Source: Bdellovibrionales bacterium
GTDB lineage: Bacteria > Bdellovibrionota > Bdellovibrionia > Bdellovibrionales > JAUICD01
Assembly (NCBI GenBank): GCA_965203275.1
Contig: OZ241865.1
Location: 1,632,001-1,696,000, forward strand
DNA length: 64,000 bases
Direction of reading: 5' to 3'
A model generated the notes under the pieces. The model was not told the DNA's origin, did no database searches, and was given only the letters and a program-made list of their open reading frames with translations. Every line of letters starts with the position of its first letter. The first letter of the stretch is position 1. The position numbers were made by a program, and so were the translations under genes. This document shows, piece after piece, positions 5,226 to 63,548 of this stretch.

Positions 5226-5962
5226 TGTCTCACTAAAAGTGGTCTGACCTCTGGTCACTTTCTGGTTGCCAGCCGAAGGCTATCGCCTTCTTATCTTTTT
5301 CACTAAAAATAAACCAGCCTCTGGCTGTTTTTGGGCATTGCTCTGACAGCTTACGCTGTCTAAAAAGAGCAATGCCTCAAAAATCCGTTTATTTTTAGTA
5401 GGGAGGATCCCTTCGTTTCTTAACACCATGTTAAGGAAAAAGTTCCTTCATCACTTGCTGGCAACCTAGAAAGCTTGACCACTTTTAGTAGGGAGGATCT
5501 CCTCGTCTCTTGACTACATGTTAAGGAAAAAGTTCGTATTTTTGTTTTTTTATTTTTTTAGATTCTGCGTAATTCTCAAAAAAAATATAAATATTATGAG
5601 TGGGAGGCGGAGGCAGGCTGGAGGAGTTGTCTCACTAAAAGTAAACTGGCCTCTGGCCACTTTTGAGCTGGATCTTCAATTTATTTCTTAAATTTCAAAA
5701 TCATTGCCCTGAGACCAGACTCTTTCCCATTCATATCATTAGCTTTTAAAAAACTTCATCTTATTGGGCTTTGAATTTCTGTACTTACAAATAAAAAATC
5801 TGGATGCGAATGGTAATGGACAATGACCGCAAAGGCTTTCGCCGTCGATCAAAGGCTAACTGTCCAAAAGCAACCAGAGGTTGGTTTACTTTTAGTGAAA
5901 CAGAGGTGTGGCTCATTTTGAGTGAAAATGATGGCTAGTTCAATTTTAGGGAAACAGAGGCT
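5226..5962. repeat. Mosaic cluster of multi-hairpin dispersed elements (includes nested insertions)
   Basis: cactaaaagtggtc...gaccacttttagt stems, cc-tct-gg hairpins, gttaaggaaaaag ends; same modules recur at about ten other loci. Confidence 0.9.
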
Positions 5963-6061
5963 GGGAAATGATGGCGTTTGACTTTCATAAAAATGCAAGG
6001 TATCATATTAATTAAAAGTCATGTAATATCTTAAAAAACTTATAATTTATGGAGGTATTTT

Positions 6062-6502
6062 ATGGAAATTGCCGTTATAACAATCTTTTTTACTGTGACA
6101 GCTTGGTATTTAAATAGATCTTTTGCTTATATGGACAAAAGATTCGATCTTTTAAGAGATGATTCTAATAAAAAGTTTGATGAGTTTAGGAATGCATCGG
6201 ATAAAAAGTTTGATGAGTTTAGAAACGCATCGGATAAAAAACTTGATGAGTTTAGAAACGCATCGGATAAAAAACTTGATGAGTTTAGAAACGCATCGGA
6301 TAAAAAGTTTGATGATTTTAAATATTTTTTTAAGGAATTATTAGAGTCAAAAATTTCTCCTATTAATGAAAAATTAAATAATCATATCACTGATACTGAT
6401 AAAAAAATTGATGATCTTAAAGCTGATGTAAAGGCACTTAATTCCAAGATGGATGAAGGATTTAAAGAAATCAAAGCTTTAATTCAACAATTACAAAGAT
6501 AA
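6062..6502 (+). CDS. TM + coiled-coil protein with 11-aa tandem repeats (Bdr/KID-repeat-like)
   Basis: GGAGG RBS; (DKKFDEFRNAS)n; NHITDT motif; KIDDLK. Confidence 0.8.
   Translation: MEIAVITIFFTVTAWYLNRSFAYMDKRFDLLRDDSNKKFDEFRNASDKKFDEFRNASDKKLDEFRNASDKKLDEFRNASDKKFDDFKYFFKELLESKISPINEKLNNHITDTDKKIDDLKADVKALNSKMDEGFKEIKALIQQLQR
6168..6315 (+). repeat. In-frame 33-bp tandem repeat, ~4.5 copies
   Basis: gataaaaa(g/a)(t/c)ttgatgagtttagaaacgcatcg repeated. Confidence 0.95.
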
Positions 6503-6514
6503 TGCTTACAATAG

Positions 6515-6556
6515 CCGGGATCCAAGATCCCGGCAGACGGGCAACCCGGCATCAAA
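6515..6556. repeat. Isolated GC-rich heptamer module between convergent genes (possible terminator hairpin)
   Basis: gccgggatc-caa-gatcccggc hairpin followed by ggcaacccggcatca, as in other clusters. Confidence 0.7.
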
Positions 6557-6569
6557 AGGGCTGGGATTG

Positions 6570-60100: not shown

Positions 60101-61145
60101 GTTCACGCAAAATGGTCATTTGTTTCCCTAAAATTGAACTAGCCTCTGGCTACTTTTGAGCTGGATCTTCAATTTATTTCTTAAATTTCAAAATCATTGC
60201 CCTGAGACCAGATTCTTTCCCATTCATATCATTAGCTTTTATCACTTTTTACTCATTTGGCTTCGTTATTTAATGCTTCAAATTCAAAAAATGATTGCGA
60301 ATGGTAATTGGCAGTTAGCCCGACGACTTTCGTCGTCGATCAAAGGCTGGCTACCTCAAAAGCTTGTTCAATTTTAGGAGGAGGATCGCCTTGTCTCTTC
60401 ACATGATGTTAAGGAAAAAGTTTTTTTTGATGCCGGGTTGCCTGACTGCCGGATCCCAGATCCCGGATCTCGGAAAAAATCAAATTTAGCTTTAAGTATT
60501 TTTACACAGTTTATATAAAAAAGCTCCTAATTTATCAGCTTGTTTTGCTAATTCCATACAACCAACAAATTCTAGATCCAATATTGCCTGAGTTGTTTCA
60601 CTAAAAGTGGTTGGCTCACTCAAAGTGAACTGACCTCTGGTCACTTTCTGGCGATGACCACGATGGCTTTCGCCATCGATAAAATGGTCATCGCCTAGAA
60701 AGCCTGTTCACTTTGAGTAAGGAGGATCCCTTCGTTTTTTTACACAATGTTAAGGAAAAAGTTCCTTTTTTTATTTTTTTATTCTTTTTAGATTCTGCGT
60801 AACCATCAAAAAATGAAGAATATTATGAGTGGGAGGCGGTGGTAGGCTGAAGATCTTCCGCAGACTCGCTTGCTCTCCAAAAGCAAGCGAAGGTTGAGGA
60901 CTTCGGAAGCCTGCCTCCGCATTCCACTCATAAAAAACATACAAATAGAAAAGCAGAATCGAAGGGCGGGGGGTGGGGTTAGGGAGTTAGCTGTTTCACT
61001 AAAAGTGGTCTGACCTCTGGTCACTTTCTGGCGATGACCACGACGGCTTTCGCCGTCGATAAAATGGTCATCACCTAGAAAGCCTGACCACTTTTAGTAG
61101 AAAGGATCTCCTTGCTTTTTAACACCATGTTAGGGAAACAAGATA
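60101..61145 (+). repeat. Mosaic cluster: multi-hairpin elements, passenger insert, heptamer tail and a long branched hairpin (60790-60960)
   Basis: Same modules as 5226-5962 and 36295-37684. Confidence 0.92.
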
Positions 61146-61409
61146 TTCGTCTTTTTAGATTTTTTTCTAAAAGATGGGGAAATTAGGGTTTGAAAATTAG
61201 AAATTCAGTGATTTCAATAAGTTAATACTGTGACTTTTGTATAAAAGTTACAGTATTAAGTGTTTGTAATTGTTAGACTTTTTTAGGTCGACTTTAGAAA
61301 TTTCTCATTTTTTAGTGTTTTTTATAACCTAGGCTTGACTTTTTAGATATATGTTGTTATAAAATCAAAAATTAATTAATTCAAAGAAGAAAAAGAAGGA
61401 GAAGTACAA

Positions 61410-62687
61410 ATGAAAAAATATATTTTTATCCTATTTATTGCTTTGCTTGTTTCTAGTGATTCTCTATCTATGGACCTAGGGAAGACTTGTGTTGGAGTCC
61501 TTATGTCAAATTTAAAACAAAAAGTTATTAAAAAGCCCTTAAGTGAGAGTGAATTATTGAATCTAAATAATAGGTTATTAAATCTTGTTCGTGCCAGCGG
61601 CCGTACTAGATTGATAAAGAAAGTGCTAGAAAATGGTGCTAACGTCAATTATCAAAACGAAAATGGCAATACGGCTTTAATGGTGGCTAGTTATGAAGGA
61701 GATATAGAGATTGTAAAGTTATTGCTAAAAAAGGGAGCTAACGTCAATCTTCAAAACAAATATGGCATGACGGCTTTAATGTACGCTAGTTCTAAAGGCC
61801 ATATAGAAATTGTAAGGTTATTGCTAGAGGTTAGAGCTAGTGTTAATCATCCTGAAATTGTAAGGTTATTGATAGAGTTTAGAGCTAACGTCAATCATCA
61901 AGACGAAGATGGCATGACGGCTTTAATGTTGGCTAGTTCTAAAGGCCATATAGAAATTGTAAGGGCATTGCTAGAGGCCGGAGCTAACGTCAATCTTCAA
62001 AACAAAAATGGCAATACGGCTTTAATGTATGCTAGTCATGAAGACCATATTGAAGTTGTAAGGGCATTGCTAGCGGCCAGAGCTAACGTCAATCATCAAG
62101 ACGAAGATGGCGATACGGCTTTAATGTATGCTAGTCATGAAGACCATATTGAAGTTGTAAGGGCATTGCTAGCGGCCGGAGCTAACGTCAATCTTCAAAA
62201 CAAAGATGGCGATACGGCTTTAATGTATGCTAGTCATGAAGACCATATTGAAGTTGTAAGGGCATTGCTAGCGGCCGGAGCTAACGTCAATCATCAAGAC
62301 AAAAATGACAATACGGCTTTAATGGTGGCTAGTCTTGAAGGCCATATTGAAGTTGTAAGGGCATTGCTAGCGGCCGGAGCTAACGTCAATCTTCAAAACA
62401 AAGATGGCAATACGGCTTTAATGTATGCTAGTTCTAAAGGCCATATAGAAATTGTAAGGTTATTGCTAGAGTTTAGAGCTAGCGTCAATCTTCAAAACTC
62501 TGGTGGCTGGACGGCTTTAATGGTGGCTAGTCGTGAAGGCTATATAGAAATTGTAAAGTTATTGCTAAAGGCCGGAGCCAACGTCAATCTTCAAGATAAA
62601 GAAGGCAAGACAGCTCTATGGTTTGCTAGAAATAAAGGACGTACTGATATTGAAAGACTATTAAAAGAGGCCGGAGCTACAGAATAA
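61410..62687 (+). CDS. Secreted ankyrin-repeat protein (~10 repeats), paralog of 10389
   Basis: MKKYIFILFIALLVSSDSL; near-identical 99-bp repeats at ~62014-62310. Confidence 0.95.
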   Translation: MKKYIFILFIALLVSSDSLSMDLGKTCVGVLMSNLKQKVIKKPLSESELLNLNNRLLNLVRASGRTRLIKKVLENGANVNYQNENGNTALMVASYEGDIEIVKLLLKKGANVNLQNKYGMTALMYASSKGHIEIVRLLLEVRASVNHPEIVRLLIEFRANVNHQDEDGMTALMLASSKGHIEIVRALLEAGANVNLQNKNGNTALMYASHEDHIEVVRALLAARANVNHQDEDGDTALMYASHEDHIEVVRALLAAGANVNLQNKDGDTALMYASHEDHIEVVRALLAAGANVNHQDKNDNTALMVASLEGHIEVVRALLAAGANVNLQNKDGNTALMYASSKGHIEIVRLLLEFRASVNLQNSGGWTALMVASREGYIEIVKLLLKAGANVNLQDKEGKTALWFARNKGRTDIERLLKEAGATE

Positions 62688-62777
62688 GACCAATTCTATT
62701 TATCCTTATGTAAGTCCAAAGCCCGGCTTGAATTTTCTAAAATCCTATATTTCCATAGGCCATAGTTTTTTATAAGG

Positions 62778-63548
62778 AAATTTTTCCTTAACATCGTGTC
62801 AATCCGGGATCTGGGATCCGGCAACCGGCATCTAAATGAACTCTTTCCTTAACATGGTGTTAAGAGAAAAAAGGATCCTCTCTACTCAAAGTGAACAGGC
62901 TTTTGAGACAATGACCATTTTGTCAAAGGCAAAAGCCTTTGCAGGCAACACTCAAGGCGTAAGAAGGAACTTTTTCCTTAACATGTGGTCAAGAGACGAG
63001 AGGATCCTTCCTACTAAAAGTAAACGGACTTTTGAGGTTGCCAGCATTTAAGAAGGCGATAGCCTTCGGCTGGCAAGCCAAAAGTAGCCAGAGGCTAGTT
63101 TACTTTTAGTGAAAAAGAGAGGTGTGGCTCATTTTGAGTGAACCAAACCCTTAACATGGTGTTTATCCGGGATCTGGGATCCGGGAACCCGGCATCAGGT
63201 CCTAAAGCATTGATTGTAATGAATTTTTTCATCTAAAAAATTTCCTCCTGAGCCCTTGGCGGGTTTAAAATGAACTTTTTCCTTAACATGGTGTTAAAAA
63301 ATGAGGAGATCCTCCCTACTAAAAGTAAACGGACTTTTGAGACATTGCTCTTTTTAGACAGCGATAGCTGTCAGAGCAAACATCAGAAGGAAATCTTTTT
63401 CCTTAACATTGTGTTAAGAAATGAGGACATCCTCCTTCCTAAAATTGAACAAGCTTTTGAGACAGTTAGCCTTTGATCGACGGCGAGAGCCGTCGGGCTA
63501 ACTGTCCAAAAGTAGCCAGAGGCTAGTTTACAAAAGTGGCCAGAGGCT
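62778..63548 (-). repeat. Tandem multi-hairpin elements (all four inner variants) with heptamer tails
   Basis: ccttaacatggtgttaa, aaaggc-aaaa-gccttt, gaaggc-gata-gccttc, gacagc-gata-gctgtc, cgacggc-gaga-gccgtcg. Confidence 0.92.

What the first reader, a model, noticed from the sequence alone, without database searches (positions are those of the whole stretch)
5226..63548. Dispersed ~160-bp multi-hairpin element family: four sequence-distinct variants with one conserved structure
Seen: about 30 complete or partial units in 11 clusters, roughly 10% of the window. Topology is P1 (~13 bp), then hairpin P2 with TCT loop, then P3 (10-11 bp) enclosing tetraloop hairpin P4 and an A-rich bulge, then P1', then two 3' hairpins ending gttaaggaaa. 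The stems covary. P1: actaaaagtggtc/gaccacttttagt, actaaaagtaaac/gtttacttttagt, cctaaaattgaac/gttcaattttagg, actcaaagtgaac/gttcactttgagt, actcaaaatgcat/atgcattttgagt. P2: tagcc/ggcta, tgacc/ggtca, tggcc/ggcca, cagcc/ggctg, catgcc/ggcatg. P3-P4: (a) ggcgatgacc-cgatggc..gccatcg-ataaaat-ggtcatcgcc, (b) ggcagttagcc-cgacggc..gccgtcg-atcaaa-ggctaactgcc, (c) ggttgccagc-gaaggc..gccttc-ttaaat-gctggcaacc, (d) ggcattgctct-gacagc..gctgtc-taaaa-agagcaatgcc. Variants are combined in different ways. Inference: selection acts on an RNA or ssDNA fold rather than on sequence, so this is a non-autonomous structured mobile element or ncRNA family more elaborate than typical REP/BIME units. A trans-acting enzyme (e.g. 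HUH/RAYT-type transposase, IS110-like recombinase or RT) would have to be encoded elsewhere.
Basis: partly seen in the sequence, partly recalled or inferred. Interest (0 to 1): 0.9.

Follow-up and report, generated by a model that had tools for sequence, protein, structure and literature searches.

The report
Self-nesting three-armed hairpin DNA repeat
A 145-base non-coding DNA unit that folds into a three-armed hairpin fills about 7% of this small uncultured bacterial genome and keeps landing in the hairpin loops of its own older copies; it is a new, elaborate kind of selfish repeat, and the enzyme that moves it is still unknown.

Summary
The window has 35 distinct units (19 full length) in 11 clusters, 6.8% of its bases. 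The genome has 1,364 units, 6.7%. The core folds as a three-way junction with strong compensatory variation: 34 of 51 pairs change on both sides, and 0 of 500 shuffles reach the observed values. Stems are almost purely Watson-Crick with no wobble excess. Both strands fold equally well, and orientation ignores genes and replichores. This points to a DNA-level fold, not an RNA gene.

Identical young copies sit at one exact spot, the P2 loop (CC-TCTG|TTT-CAC), of at least five different resident alleles. The left junction is precise, the right one variable, and there is no target duplication.

The genome has no Y1/RAYT, reverse transcriptase, IS91-type or IS110-type gene.

Two multi-copy gene families are tied to the repeat. 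Rpn-type PD-(D/E)XK nuclease genes abut element heads. Small 23S-IVS-type four-helix genes are flanked by a third, GC-rich module. Neither link holds in all relatives.

The family was found only in this genus, plus three short contigs of one related bin.

This scan had already flagged the same family in at least five other windows of this genome. My reading agrees with those notes and adds the junction anatomy, the enzyme exclusions and the Rpn link.

The parts
5225..5904 (.). Cluster 1. A composite of an outer unit (allele c, 5226-5290 and 5456-5539) interrupted in its A-rich bulge by a complete inner unit (5295-5450, +), plus further partial units.
   Evidence: genome 1637295-1637450 is this inner unit; the same composite recurs at 6 other genome places
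6503..6569 (.). Solo GC-rich 'CCGGGATC...GGCAACCCGGCATCA' module between two convergent genes, with no R1 unit attached.
7541..7834 (-). Two tandem units in the murB-divIVA spacer. The orthologous spacer of the congener G001 is 137 nt and holds none.
8538..8694 (+). Single complete unit downstream of divIVA.
12884..13200 (.). One tail fragment and one complete unit (13038-13200, -).
19895..20171 (.). One complete unit (19968-20120, -) and one partial unit.
30635..31003 (.). One complete unit (30845-31003, -), a 5'-truncated unit and a head fragment.
36311..37686 (.). Largest cluster. Complete units lie at 36393-36550, 36925-37088 and 37337-37503 (+) and 37522-37686 (-), the last two forming a tail-to-tail pair. 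Five stacked heads of different alleles lie at 36832-36931. A GC-rich CCGGAT module with a second tail lies at 36541-36720.
42181..43122 (.). Cluster directly after the stop of the 1238-aa SpoIID/ankyrin gene. Units lie at 42181-42341, 42554-42713 and 42758-42922 (+) and 42940-43099 (-), the last two tail-to-tail.
44497..44536 (-). Orphan head (profile positions 5-44).
59997..60103 (+). Fragment (unit positions 82-189) of an Rpn-type Transposase_31 gene unit, cut off at ...AACCTTGGTT| by the head of an element that starts at 60104.
60120..61153 (+). A head, a 5'-truncated unit and two complete units (60611-60772, 60991-61153).
62834..63530 (-). Four units on the minus strand (62834-62951, 62960-63117, 63267-63378, 63378-63530).

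Best explanation
R1, as I call it, is a selfish, non-autonomous DNA repeat. Each unit has a 7-nt T-rich leader (TTTGTTT), a roughly 105-nt three-way-junction core (P1, P2, P3-P4) whose stems are kept complementary while their sequences come in interchangeable alleles, and a roughly 40-nt tail that is conserved in sequence (...ATGTTAAGGAAA).

Shown: it is recent and mobile. Identical copies sit in different resident copies and in two gene families. Occupancy differs between congeners. Its preferred landing place is the invariant loop of its own P2 hairpin, always in the orientation of the resident. The left junction is exact, the right one variable, and there is no target duplication.

Inferred mechanism: a nick or break at a TYTG in an extruded hairpin loop or T-rich site gives a 3' end. 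That end pairs with the donor's TTTG leader by microhomology and primes copying of a donor unit from head to tail. Return to the resident is imprecise, so resident sequence is lost, or happens early, which leaves orphan heads. Arms stay matched because whole inner modules are exchanged as blocks, through repair within the hairpin, or both.

The enzyme is not identified. The most likely partner is one of the roughly 30 Rpn-type PD-(D/E)XK nuclease genes, which abut element heads. This last step is the weakest.
For: Abundance and placement: there are 1,364 units covering 6.7% of the genome, and 98.4% of element bases lie outside called genes.

Fold: 93.6% of cells are paired and 34 of 51 pairs change on both sides. 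None of 500 shuffles reaches these values, and slid controls give 34-51% paired.

DNA level: the core is 94.4% Watson-Crick with G:U 335 against A:C 207. Both strands fold to -39 to -44 kcal/mol. Orientation is same-as-gene 174 against opposite 215, with no replichore bias.

Self-targeting: 142 of 478 complete units have another head within 40 nt upstream, 112 of them at exactly 26-27 nt, and 81 carry the junction CCTCT[GT]NTT|. Groups of 8 and 7 identical copies lie behind heads of at least 5 different alleles. The downstream P1' arm matches that resident head in at least 3 of 8 and at least 4 of 7. All 25 of 25 cleanly nested cases are co-oriented.

Junctions: the TTTGTTT leader is seen in 212 non-redundant solo flanks. 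Exact 8-mer repeats at the flanks occur in 19 of 478 units against 6.6 expected, at no fixed offset.

Insertions in genes: two different alleles sit at one CCTTG|TTT site of Transposase_31 copies. Four PDDEXK_2 copies are interrupted at one site where three are intact.

Congener difference.

Rpn link: 9 of 23 Transposase_31 and 7 of 24 PDDEXK_2 ORF pieces have an element head abutting an end and pointing away, against 121 of 1,814 genes overall. The left end of the Transposase_31 unit abuts a head in 5 of 5 copies. RpnA leaves 3'-OH ends that prime polymerase, and the family has no defined mobile element (passages of PMC5350276).
Against: No transposition intermediate, empty site in a strain, or transcript was seen. 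Public runs are contigs that break at the repeat.

The Rpn link is weak outside this genome. In the congener G001 only 7 of 21 Rpn loci have a unit within 1 kb, which is no more than its repeat density would give. G003 has 16 Transposase_31 genes and no unit. Paralogous gene copies are not independent events, so the enrichment is overstated.

The four interrupted PDDEXK_2 copies carry a 9-nt direct repeat (TTTTATTCT) at both ends of the insert. This could be a target duplication and does not fit a duplication-free mechanism.

The order of remainders after the five stacked heads in the window (A' before C') is not that of simple nesting.

Spread of nested arrangements by plain gene conversion between copies would produce some of the same junctions.
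Confidence: 0.55

Rival explanations
1. The element moves by ssDNA transposition through an unrecognised HUH-like or other structure-reading enzyme, in the manner of REPIN/RAYT or IS200/IS605. The enzyme would recognise the conserved tail and the hairpins and insert the unit 3' of a short target.
For: There are no terminal inverted repeats and no general target duplication. The left junction follows a short motif exactly. The fold is conserved rather than the sequence. Tail-to-tail inverted dimers outnumber head-to-head ones 51 to 6, 35 of them with a 10-29 nt gap, which resembles REPINs.
Against: PF01797 gives no match in the single-contig genome, while its control rings in 6 of 14 genomes. 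There is no replichore strand bias. The right junction is variable and resident sequence is lost, unlike the clean ends of IS200/IS605.
Confidence: 0.15
2. No dedicated enzyme exists. Host recombination, gene conversion and replication slippage between many dispersed homologous hairpins shuffle modules, copy nested arrangements from one unit to another, and create heads and chimeras. The family is an old relic that is only being rearranged.
For: Alleles of P1, P2 and P3 are reshuffled. The shared stretch in the groups of identical copies runs into the conserved P4 region of the resident, as a conversion tract would. Of 443 units, 29 are P1 chimeras, and in 21 of these the 3' arm equals another major allele.
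Against: Units occur at unique, non-homologous sites and inside genes (copy 1530499). Occupancy differs at an orthologous spacer between congeners. Homology-driven exchange cannot colonise new sites or reach 1,364 copies.
Confidence: 0.13
3. The small four-helix-bundle gene (23S_rRNA_IVP / Avd-like) is the mobility factor. R1, the GC-rich module and the IVP cassette would be parts of one IVS-like element, and gene-less units would be its deletion derivatives.
For: IVP gene counts are 14/19/22 in the three genomes that hold R1 and 0/0 in the two that lack it. In G000, 10 of 11 IVP ORFs have a unit within 150 nt downstream, against 15.7% of all genes. The cassette is bracketed by the same GC-rich module that follows 260 of 985 tails. 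An insert in PDDEXK_2 genes joins a tail to the sequence that normally precedes the IVP promoter. An old proposal holds that the IVS ORF serves mobility (passage of PMC4990558).
Against: None of 19 IVP loci in G004 and none of 54 loci from other MAGs has a unit at E below 1e-3. In G001, 13 of 19 is near what repeat density alone would give. The protein has no known catalytic activity. R1 is absent from the 23S rRNA gene.
Confidence: 0.08
4. The unit is a structured non-coding RNA gene family or a host regulatory element (terminator, mRNA stabiliser or protein-binding site), kept by selection on an RNA fold.
For: Covariation is strong. The tail hairpins show G:U pairs that only one strand can form. 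A T-run often follows the tail.
Against: Rfam gives no match. There is no orientation preference relative to flanking genes. Units nest in one another and interrupt genes. Core stems show no wobble tolerance. Copy number is in the thousand range, with identical copies.
Confidence: 0.06

Closest known systems
REP / BIME / REPIN elements with RAYT (TnpA-REP) transposases. For PMC3116915, PMC3337134 and PMC2817692 I saw only search listings and abstract starts.
   Same: Both are hundreds to thousands of intergenic copies that form hairpins, are non-autonomous, and have no terminal inverted repeats or target duplication. Inverted dimers with a fixed spacer are favoured (tail-to-tail 51 against head-to-head 6).
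   Different: The unit is 145 nt with a three-way junction and a non-palindromic conserved tail, not a 20-40 nt single hairpin. Each stem comes in many interchangeable alleles. It inserts into its own hairpin loop. The genome has no RAYT.
IS200/IS605-derived non-autonomous elements (PATEs).
   Same: Both have subterminal secondary structure, an exact junction after a short motif, and no inverted repeats or target duplication.
   Different: There is no Y1 transposase and no TnpB-type gene apart from a 1,365-aa Cas12-like ORF. There is no replication-strand bias. The 3' junction is imprecise.
Insertion sequences that target REP hairpin loops (IS1397/ISKpn1, IS621-type IS110 members).
   Same: Both integrate into the loop of a repeated extragenic hairpin.
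   Different: Here the invader is itself a gene-less copy of the target family. No IS3- or IS110-type gene with matching ends was found.
23S rRNA intervening sequences carrying an S23p/IVP ORF (passages of PMC4990558).
   Same: Both are hairpin-bounded selfish DNA of unknown mobility associated with a PF05635 gene. In this genome the same gene family is multi-copy and linked to the repeat.
   Different: R1 is not in the rRNA gene. Most units carry no ORF. IVP cassettes multiply without R1 in other genomes.
Rpn (YhgA-like, Transposase_31 / PDDEXK_2) nucleases. I read passages of PMC5350276 and saw only the abstract start of 10.1101/2023.05.02.539157 in a search listing.
   Same: These are multi-copy 'putative transposases' without a defined element. 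Here their gene units abut element heads. Their reported chemistry, 3'-OH ends that prime polymerase, fits the junctions.
   Different: No experiment links them to any repeat. The published role is RecA-independent recombination and toxin-antitoxin phage defence. The association fails in relatives.

Membership tests
REP/REPIN-RAYT system | A RAYT (Y1 HUH, PF01797) gene in the genome, usually flanked by REPs | tested here: not met
   0 matches (6 candidates scored) in the single-contig genome; the control rings in 6 of 14 genomes.
REP/REPIN-RAYT system | Unit is a short single imperfect palindrome; REPIN is two such units inverted with a short spacer | tested here: inconclusive
   The unit is a 145-nt three-way junction plus tail, not a short palindrome. 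Tail-to-tail dimers with a 10-29 nt gap are nonetheless favoured (35 of the 51 tail-to-tail pairs, against 6 head-to-head).
MITE derived from a DDE insertion sequence | Terminal inverted repeats shared with a parent IS | tested here: not met
   Read directly, head and tail ends share only 8-10 of 12 bases. The ends of the 9-copy IS256-like element are unrelated. The IS4-like DDE element (3 copies) was not compared.
MITE derived from a DDE insertion sequence | Target-site duplication of fixed length | tested here: not met
   exact 8-mers are shared by the flanks in 19 of 478 units against 6.6 in shuffles, at no constant offset. One exception is the 9-nt repeat around the insert in PDDEXK_2 genes.
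IS200/IS605-type ssDNA elements | Y1 TnpA present; strand bias with replication direction | tested here: not met
   The GC skew of this genome is weak, so the replichore test has limited power.
IS110-family / bridge-RNA elements | DEDD transposase (PF01548) | tested here: not met
   0 matches in G000, G001, G003 and G004; 1 match in G002, which lacks the repeat.
Retroelement-derived repeats (group II intron, retron, DGR) | A reverse transcriptase gene in the genome | tested here: not met
   0 matches for PF00078; the control rings in 3 of 14 genomes.
Described structured RNA families (Rfam 15) | Match at the family's gathering score | tested here: not met
   0 matches in 64 kb; only three microRNA-precursor models, at 19-25 bits against cut-offs of 80-130.
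23S rRNA intervening sequence | Insertion in helix 9, 25 or 45 of the 23S rRNA gene | tested here: not met
   the single LSU gene matches end to end and holds no unit. One partial unit lies in the 16S-23S spacer.
Integron attC sites | IntI-type tyrosine recombinase and cassette arrays | tested here: inconclusive
   only 2 PF00589 genes (open frames of 317 and 196 aa). I did not examine what they are. The units are dispersed and do not bound cassettes.

The most novel reading that the evidence does not exclude
R1 is the long-missing mobile DNA partner of Rpn-type PD-(D/E)XK 'putative transposases'. The nuclease nicks the TCT^G loop of an extruded P2 hairpin (or a TYTG site). The freed 3'-OH pairs with the TTTG leader of a donor copy and primes head-to-tail copying. 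This would be a DNA-only, target-primed copy-in mechanism with no transposase, which also explains orphan heads as aborted copies. The linked four-helix IVP protein may hold the folded DNA.
Probability: 0.15. Interest if true: 0.85.

Novelty: new variant of a known kind. Interest (0 to 1): 0.6.

Why it matters
Bacterial genomes rarely tolerate this much repeated DNA: about 1,360 units, 6.7% of 2.57 Mb. The known high-copy hairpin repeats (REP/REPIN) depend on a RAYT gene that is absent here. This family shows three unusual things together. It has a branched fold kept through many interchangeable stem alleles. It aims exactly at its own hairpin loop. It is closely linked to two gene families whose own mobility has been an open question for decades: Rpn 'transposases' and the ORF of rRNA intervening sequences. 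With hundreds of dated natural insertion events in one closed genome, it gives a concrete substrate for testing what these proteins do to folded DNA.

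Tried and rejected
RNA evidence: no RNA holder is listed for the stretch 34100-38500.

Empty sites in strains: four runs from three studies were laid on 34100-44000. All are contigs that end at the repeats. Depth over the repeats is about 100-240 times that of the flanks, and the many 'joints' are cross-repeat artefacts. No filled or empty site could be read.

Target duplication: rejected as a general feature.

Terminal inverted repeats and an IS256 parent: rejected.

Replichore bias: none, but GC skew is weak.

Precise empty site from the congener: genes are only about 70-73% identical, and the murB-divIVA spacers cannot be aligned base by base. Only presence against absence can be stated.

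Autonomous copy with an ORF between head and tail: the split units found contain an IS256 insertion, Rpn genes or ordinary genes, with no consistent cargo.

Resolvase genes (7 ORF pieces): none has a unit within 150 nt.

G004 as an independent host: its 12 units lie only on contigs of 12, 15 and 52.5 kb. The genes on these contigs are 65-78% identical to G000, against 67-73% for its main contigs. Whether they belong to that genome stays open.

I did not run a structure prediction or a complex prediction.

Full report
**What is there**

The window is part of a single-contig genome of 2,567,810 bp with 35% GC. Its genes include many ankyrin- and RCC1-repeat proteins. A record title for the congener G001 reads 'MAG: Bdellovibrionales bacterium'.

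- The tail motif of the finding occurs 38 times in the window at up to 1 mismatch, 30 of them exact. Shuffles gave 11.0 on average and at most 20.
- It occurs 999 times in the genome.
- A profile HMM built from 443 non-redundant complete units gives 1,594 hits covering 171,145 bases, or 6.7% of the genome.
- After removing overlapping double hits this is 1,364 distinct units, 773 of them full length.
- In the window it is 35 units (19 full length) in 11 clusters, 4,343 bases or 6.8%.

**Fold**

P1 closes a three-way junction. P2 has a TCT loop. P3 encloses P4 and an A-rich bulge. In this set 27 of 51 pairs are compensated on both sides.

I then used a covariance-model alignment of 63 copies (56 distinct) from the window, the congener G001 and the bin G004.
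- 93.6% of cells pair and 34 of 51 pairs change on both sides.
- No shuffle out of 500 reaches the observed pairing, double changes or covariation score.
- Sliding the partners by 1-3 columns drops pairing to 34-51%.
- This alignment was fitted to the model, which favours the structure. The result on an unfitted alignment says the same.
- Helices 1-6, the core, carry the signal.
- The two tail hairpins vary on one side only and are rich in G:U, so they are not supported. The tail is conserved as sequence.

**DNA or RNA**

Over 443 unique genome copies the core pairs are 94.4% Watson-Crick. G:U accounts for 335 cells and A:C for 207. About 220 of the G:U cells come from three columns that are misaligned in one allele. 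There is therefore no tolerance for wobble, as one would expect for an RNA read from one strand.
- Two alleles fold as single-stranded DNA to -39 to -44 kcal/mol on either strand, with z-scores of -9.4 to -11.3.
- Units lie in all kinds of intergenic space. Between co-directional genes they are co-oriented 174 times and opposite 215 times.
- Strand use does not change along the chromosome, although the GC skew is weak.
- Only 2,734 of 171,145 element bases overlap called genes.
- Rfam has nothing at gathering score, and only microRNA-like hairpin noise in E-value mode.

I read the core as a fold of DNA, either a cruciform or single-stranded DNA of either strand.

**Alleles**

There are at least 8 P1, 5 P2 and 8 P3 alleles. 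They are combined in many ways. For example, the P1 allele AAAAGTAAAC is found with six P3 and four P2 alleles. Yet the two P1 arms, about 85 nt apart, match perfectly in 362 of 443 units. They are chimeric (3 or more mismatches) in only 29, and in 21 of those the 3' arm is another major allele. Selection on pairing would give this pattern. So would exchange of inner modules as whole blocks, or repair inside the hairpin. The data do not separate these.

**Mobility and target**

Of 478 complete units, 142 have the head of another unit within 40 nt upstream, and 112 of those are at exactly 26-27 nt. That places them in the P2 loop of the resident. The junction CCTCT[GT]NTT| is seen 81 times, behind at least seven P2 alleles.

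The largest groups of identical units are the youngest, with 8 and 7 members. They sit behind heads of at least five different alleles. Further downstream the P1' arm matches that resident head in at least 3 of 8 and at least 4 of 7 cases. These are therefore separate, recent events at one structural position.
- All 25 cleanly nested cases are co-oriented with the resident.
- The left junction is exact.
- On the right, the resident resumes at various places (J2/3, P3 or P4), and its P2 3' arm is always lost.
- Solo units are preceded by TTTGTTT, with frequencies of 0.56-0.95 over 7 positions in 212 distinct flanks and random sequence further upstream. This resembles the loop-derived TCTG+TTT.
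- There is no general target duplication.

Units also hit genes.
- Two different alleles sit at the same CCTTG|TTT site in two copies of a Transposase_31 gene, one of them in the window at 60103/60104.
- Four PDDEXK_2 gene copies carry a unit plus a GC-rich module at one site where three copies are intact. In this case the insert is flanked by a 9-nt direct repeat.

Between congeners, the murB-divIVA spacer holds two units in G000 (427 nt) and none in G001 (137 nt). G001 has units beyond murB where G000 has only a GC-rich module.

Adjacent full units are tandem 107 times, tail-to-tail 51 times (35 with a 10-29 nt gap) and head-to-head 6 times.

**Enzymes**

The genome has no match to Y1_Tnp, RVT_1, Y2_Tnp (where no control genome rang either) or DEDD_Tnp_IS110.
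- The only TnpB-type zinc-ribbon hit lies in a 1,365-aa open frame.
- There are two tyrosine recombinase genes.
- There is an IS256-like element with unrelated ends (9 copies), an IS4-like DDE gene (3 copies) and resolvase pieces that are not near units.

**Linked genes**

An all-against-all comparison of ORFs with Pfam annotation gave two families that stand out by proximity.

The first is the Rpn-type PD-(D/E)XK genes.
- Of 24 PDDEXK_2 ORF pieces, 20 have a unit within 150 nt downstream.
- Of 23 Transposase_31 pieces, 19 have one upstream.
- The background is 12-16% of genes.
- The 1,212-bp Transposase_31 unit begins directly at the reverse-complemented head of a unit in 5 of 5 copies that keep that end.
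- In 4 of 12 copies that keep the right end it is followed within 13 nt by a forward head. At least two loci thus read [unit, reversed] gene [unit].
- A head abutting a gene end and pointing away is seen for 9 of 23 and 7 of 24 pieces, against 121 of 1,814 genes overall. It is seen for none of 11 IVP, 9 IS256 and 60 ankyrin ORFs.
- Paralogous copies are not independent, so this is suggestive only.

The second is a 101-aa PF05635 (23S_rRNA_IVP) gene.
- 10 of 11 ORFs have a unit within 150 nt downstream.
- The cassette has a conserved leader in which the Shine-Dalgarno sequence is paired.
- It is bracketed on both sides by a GC-rich module (CCGGGATC repeats followed by GGCAACCCGGCATCAG), beyond which lies a reversed tail.
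- The same module follows 260 of 985 tails, and 249 tails have a second tail within 140 nt.
- The protein matches one solved chain weakly (2GSC, E = 9e-4).

**Relatives**

The model finds the unit in 3 of 41 genomes: G000, the congener G001 and G004, which is of another genus in the family. It finds none in 36 genomes of 12 other families of the order, and none in 150 other genomes sampled across the phylum (stricter filters). G004's 12 units all lie on three short contigs, so their host is uncertain.

Gene counts in G000/G001/G002/G003/G004:

| Family | Counts |
|---|---|
| Transposase_31 | 16/19/0/16/1 |
| PDDEXK_2 | 14/5/0/0/1 |
| IVP | 14/19/0/0/22 |

- PDDEXK_2 and IVP follow the repeat across these five related genomes. 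Transposase_31 does not.
- Physical linkage fades outside G000. For Rpn loci in G001 it is 7 of 21 within 1 kb.
- For IVP loci it is 13 of 19 in G001, 0 of 19 in G004 and 0 of 54 in other MAGs at E below 1e-3.
- IVP cassettes therefore multiply on their own in many Bdellovibrionota MAGs.

**Mechanism**

The following features fit one model best: an exact, microhomologous left junction in a hairpin loop, a sloppy right junction, constant co-orientation, no duplication, aborted 'heads' and no transposase. In this model a 3' end made in the loop primes copying of a donor unit from its leader to its tail. This is inference.

RpnA of E. coli is reported to be a nuclease whose 3'-OH products prime polymerase, and the family is called a putative transposase without a known element (passages of PMC5350276). 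This makes Rpn genes the first candidates.

The IVS literature still lists 'the ORF serves mobility' as an untested idea (passage of PMC4990558).

Several results weigh against my reading.
- The 9-nt repeat.
- The non-nested order of remainders in the window's stack.
- The failure of both gene links in relatives.
- The lack of any direct evidence of movement or expression.

**Literature**

Searches for the IVS protein, Rpn, REPIN/RAYT, sponge Bdellovibrionota and branched intergenic repeats returned no description of this family. These searches cover open-access text only.

**Earlier notes of this scan**

Five follow-ups on other windows of this genome reached the same general verdict: a new selfish structured repeat with an unknown enzyme. 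One noted the IVP tie and one the stacked heads, and I confirmed both. Notes from other genomes report palindromic modules next to Rpn genes. I treat these as a lead only.

Noticed in passing
L046:1490-1850 and L049:1430-1860 (G004); L110-L189: The 101-aa PF05635 (23S-IVS-type) gene forms a compact cassette that recurs 14-22 times per genome in three related genomes, and in many Bdellovibrionota MAGs at 45-77% identity. The cassette is a GC-rich module, a leader in which AAATTTCCTCC pairs with GGAGGAAATTT (hiding the ribosome-binding site), the ORF, and a second GC-rich module. It is often placed right after a host gene's stop codon and often at contig ends.
   Followed up: partly
genome 892492-893654, 907566-908806, 2024930-2026218, 1707132-1707806 (not in window): The element insert in PDDEXK_2 (Rpn-type) genes lies exactly before an internal GGAGG-ATG. 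The C-terminal part could therefore still be made alone. This recalls the published small Rpn antitoxin translated from within the gene (abstract start of 10.1101/2023.05.02.539157 in the listing).
   Followed up: no
window 6503-6569 and 36541-36720: A second repeat family, made of CCGGGATC-type palindromes followed by GGCAACCCGGCATCAG, occurs alone, after element tails and around IVP genes. GGGATC[CT]GGGATC occurs 384 times in the genome.
   Followed up: partly
genome 142210-144997 and 7-9 other places (not in window): A two-gene unit (ORFs up to about 386 and 556 aa) with no convincing Pfam domain (the 556-aa ORF has none; the other only a weak ankyrin match) is present in 8-10 copies. It may be an unrecognised insertion sequence.
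   Followed up: no
G001:C1:2868257-2870046: The congener holds a tandem array of eight identical-scoring units with a 235-nt period, next to an IVP gene.
   Followed up: no
window 34100-44000: Contigs of four public runs from three studies hold this stretch at 90-100% identity, with repeat depth 100-240 times the flanks. One run is labelled sponge metagenome and covers 19 of 30 bins.
   Followed up: partly
window 26439-30523: A type III restriction-modification pair (Res helicase 675 aa, Mod methylase 663 aa) lies beside an element cluster.
   Followed up: no
L109:5003-5080 (genome 976343-976420): A partial unit (profile positions 82-160) lies in the 16S-23S spacer of the only rRNA operon found. 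The 23S gene itself holds no R1 unit.
   Followed up: yes
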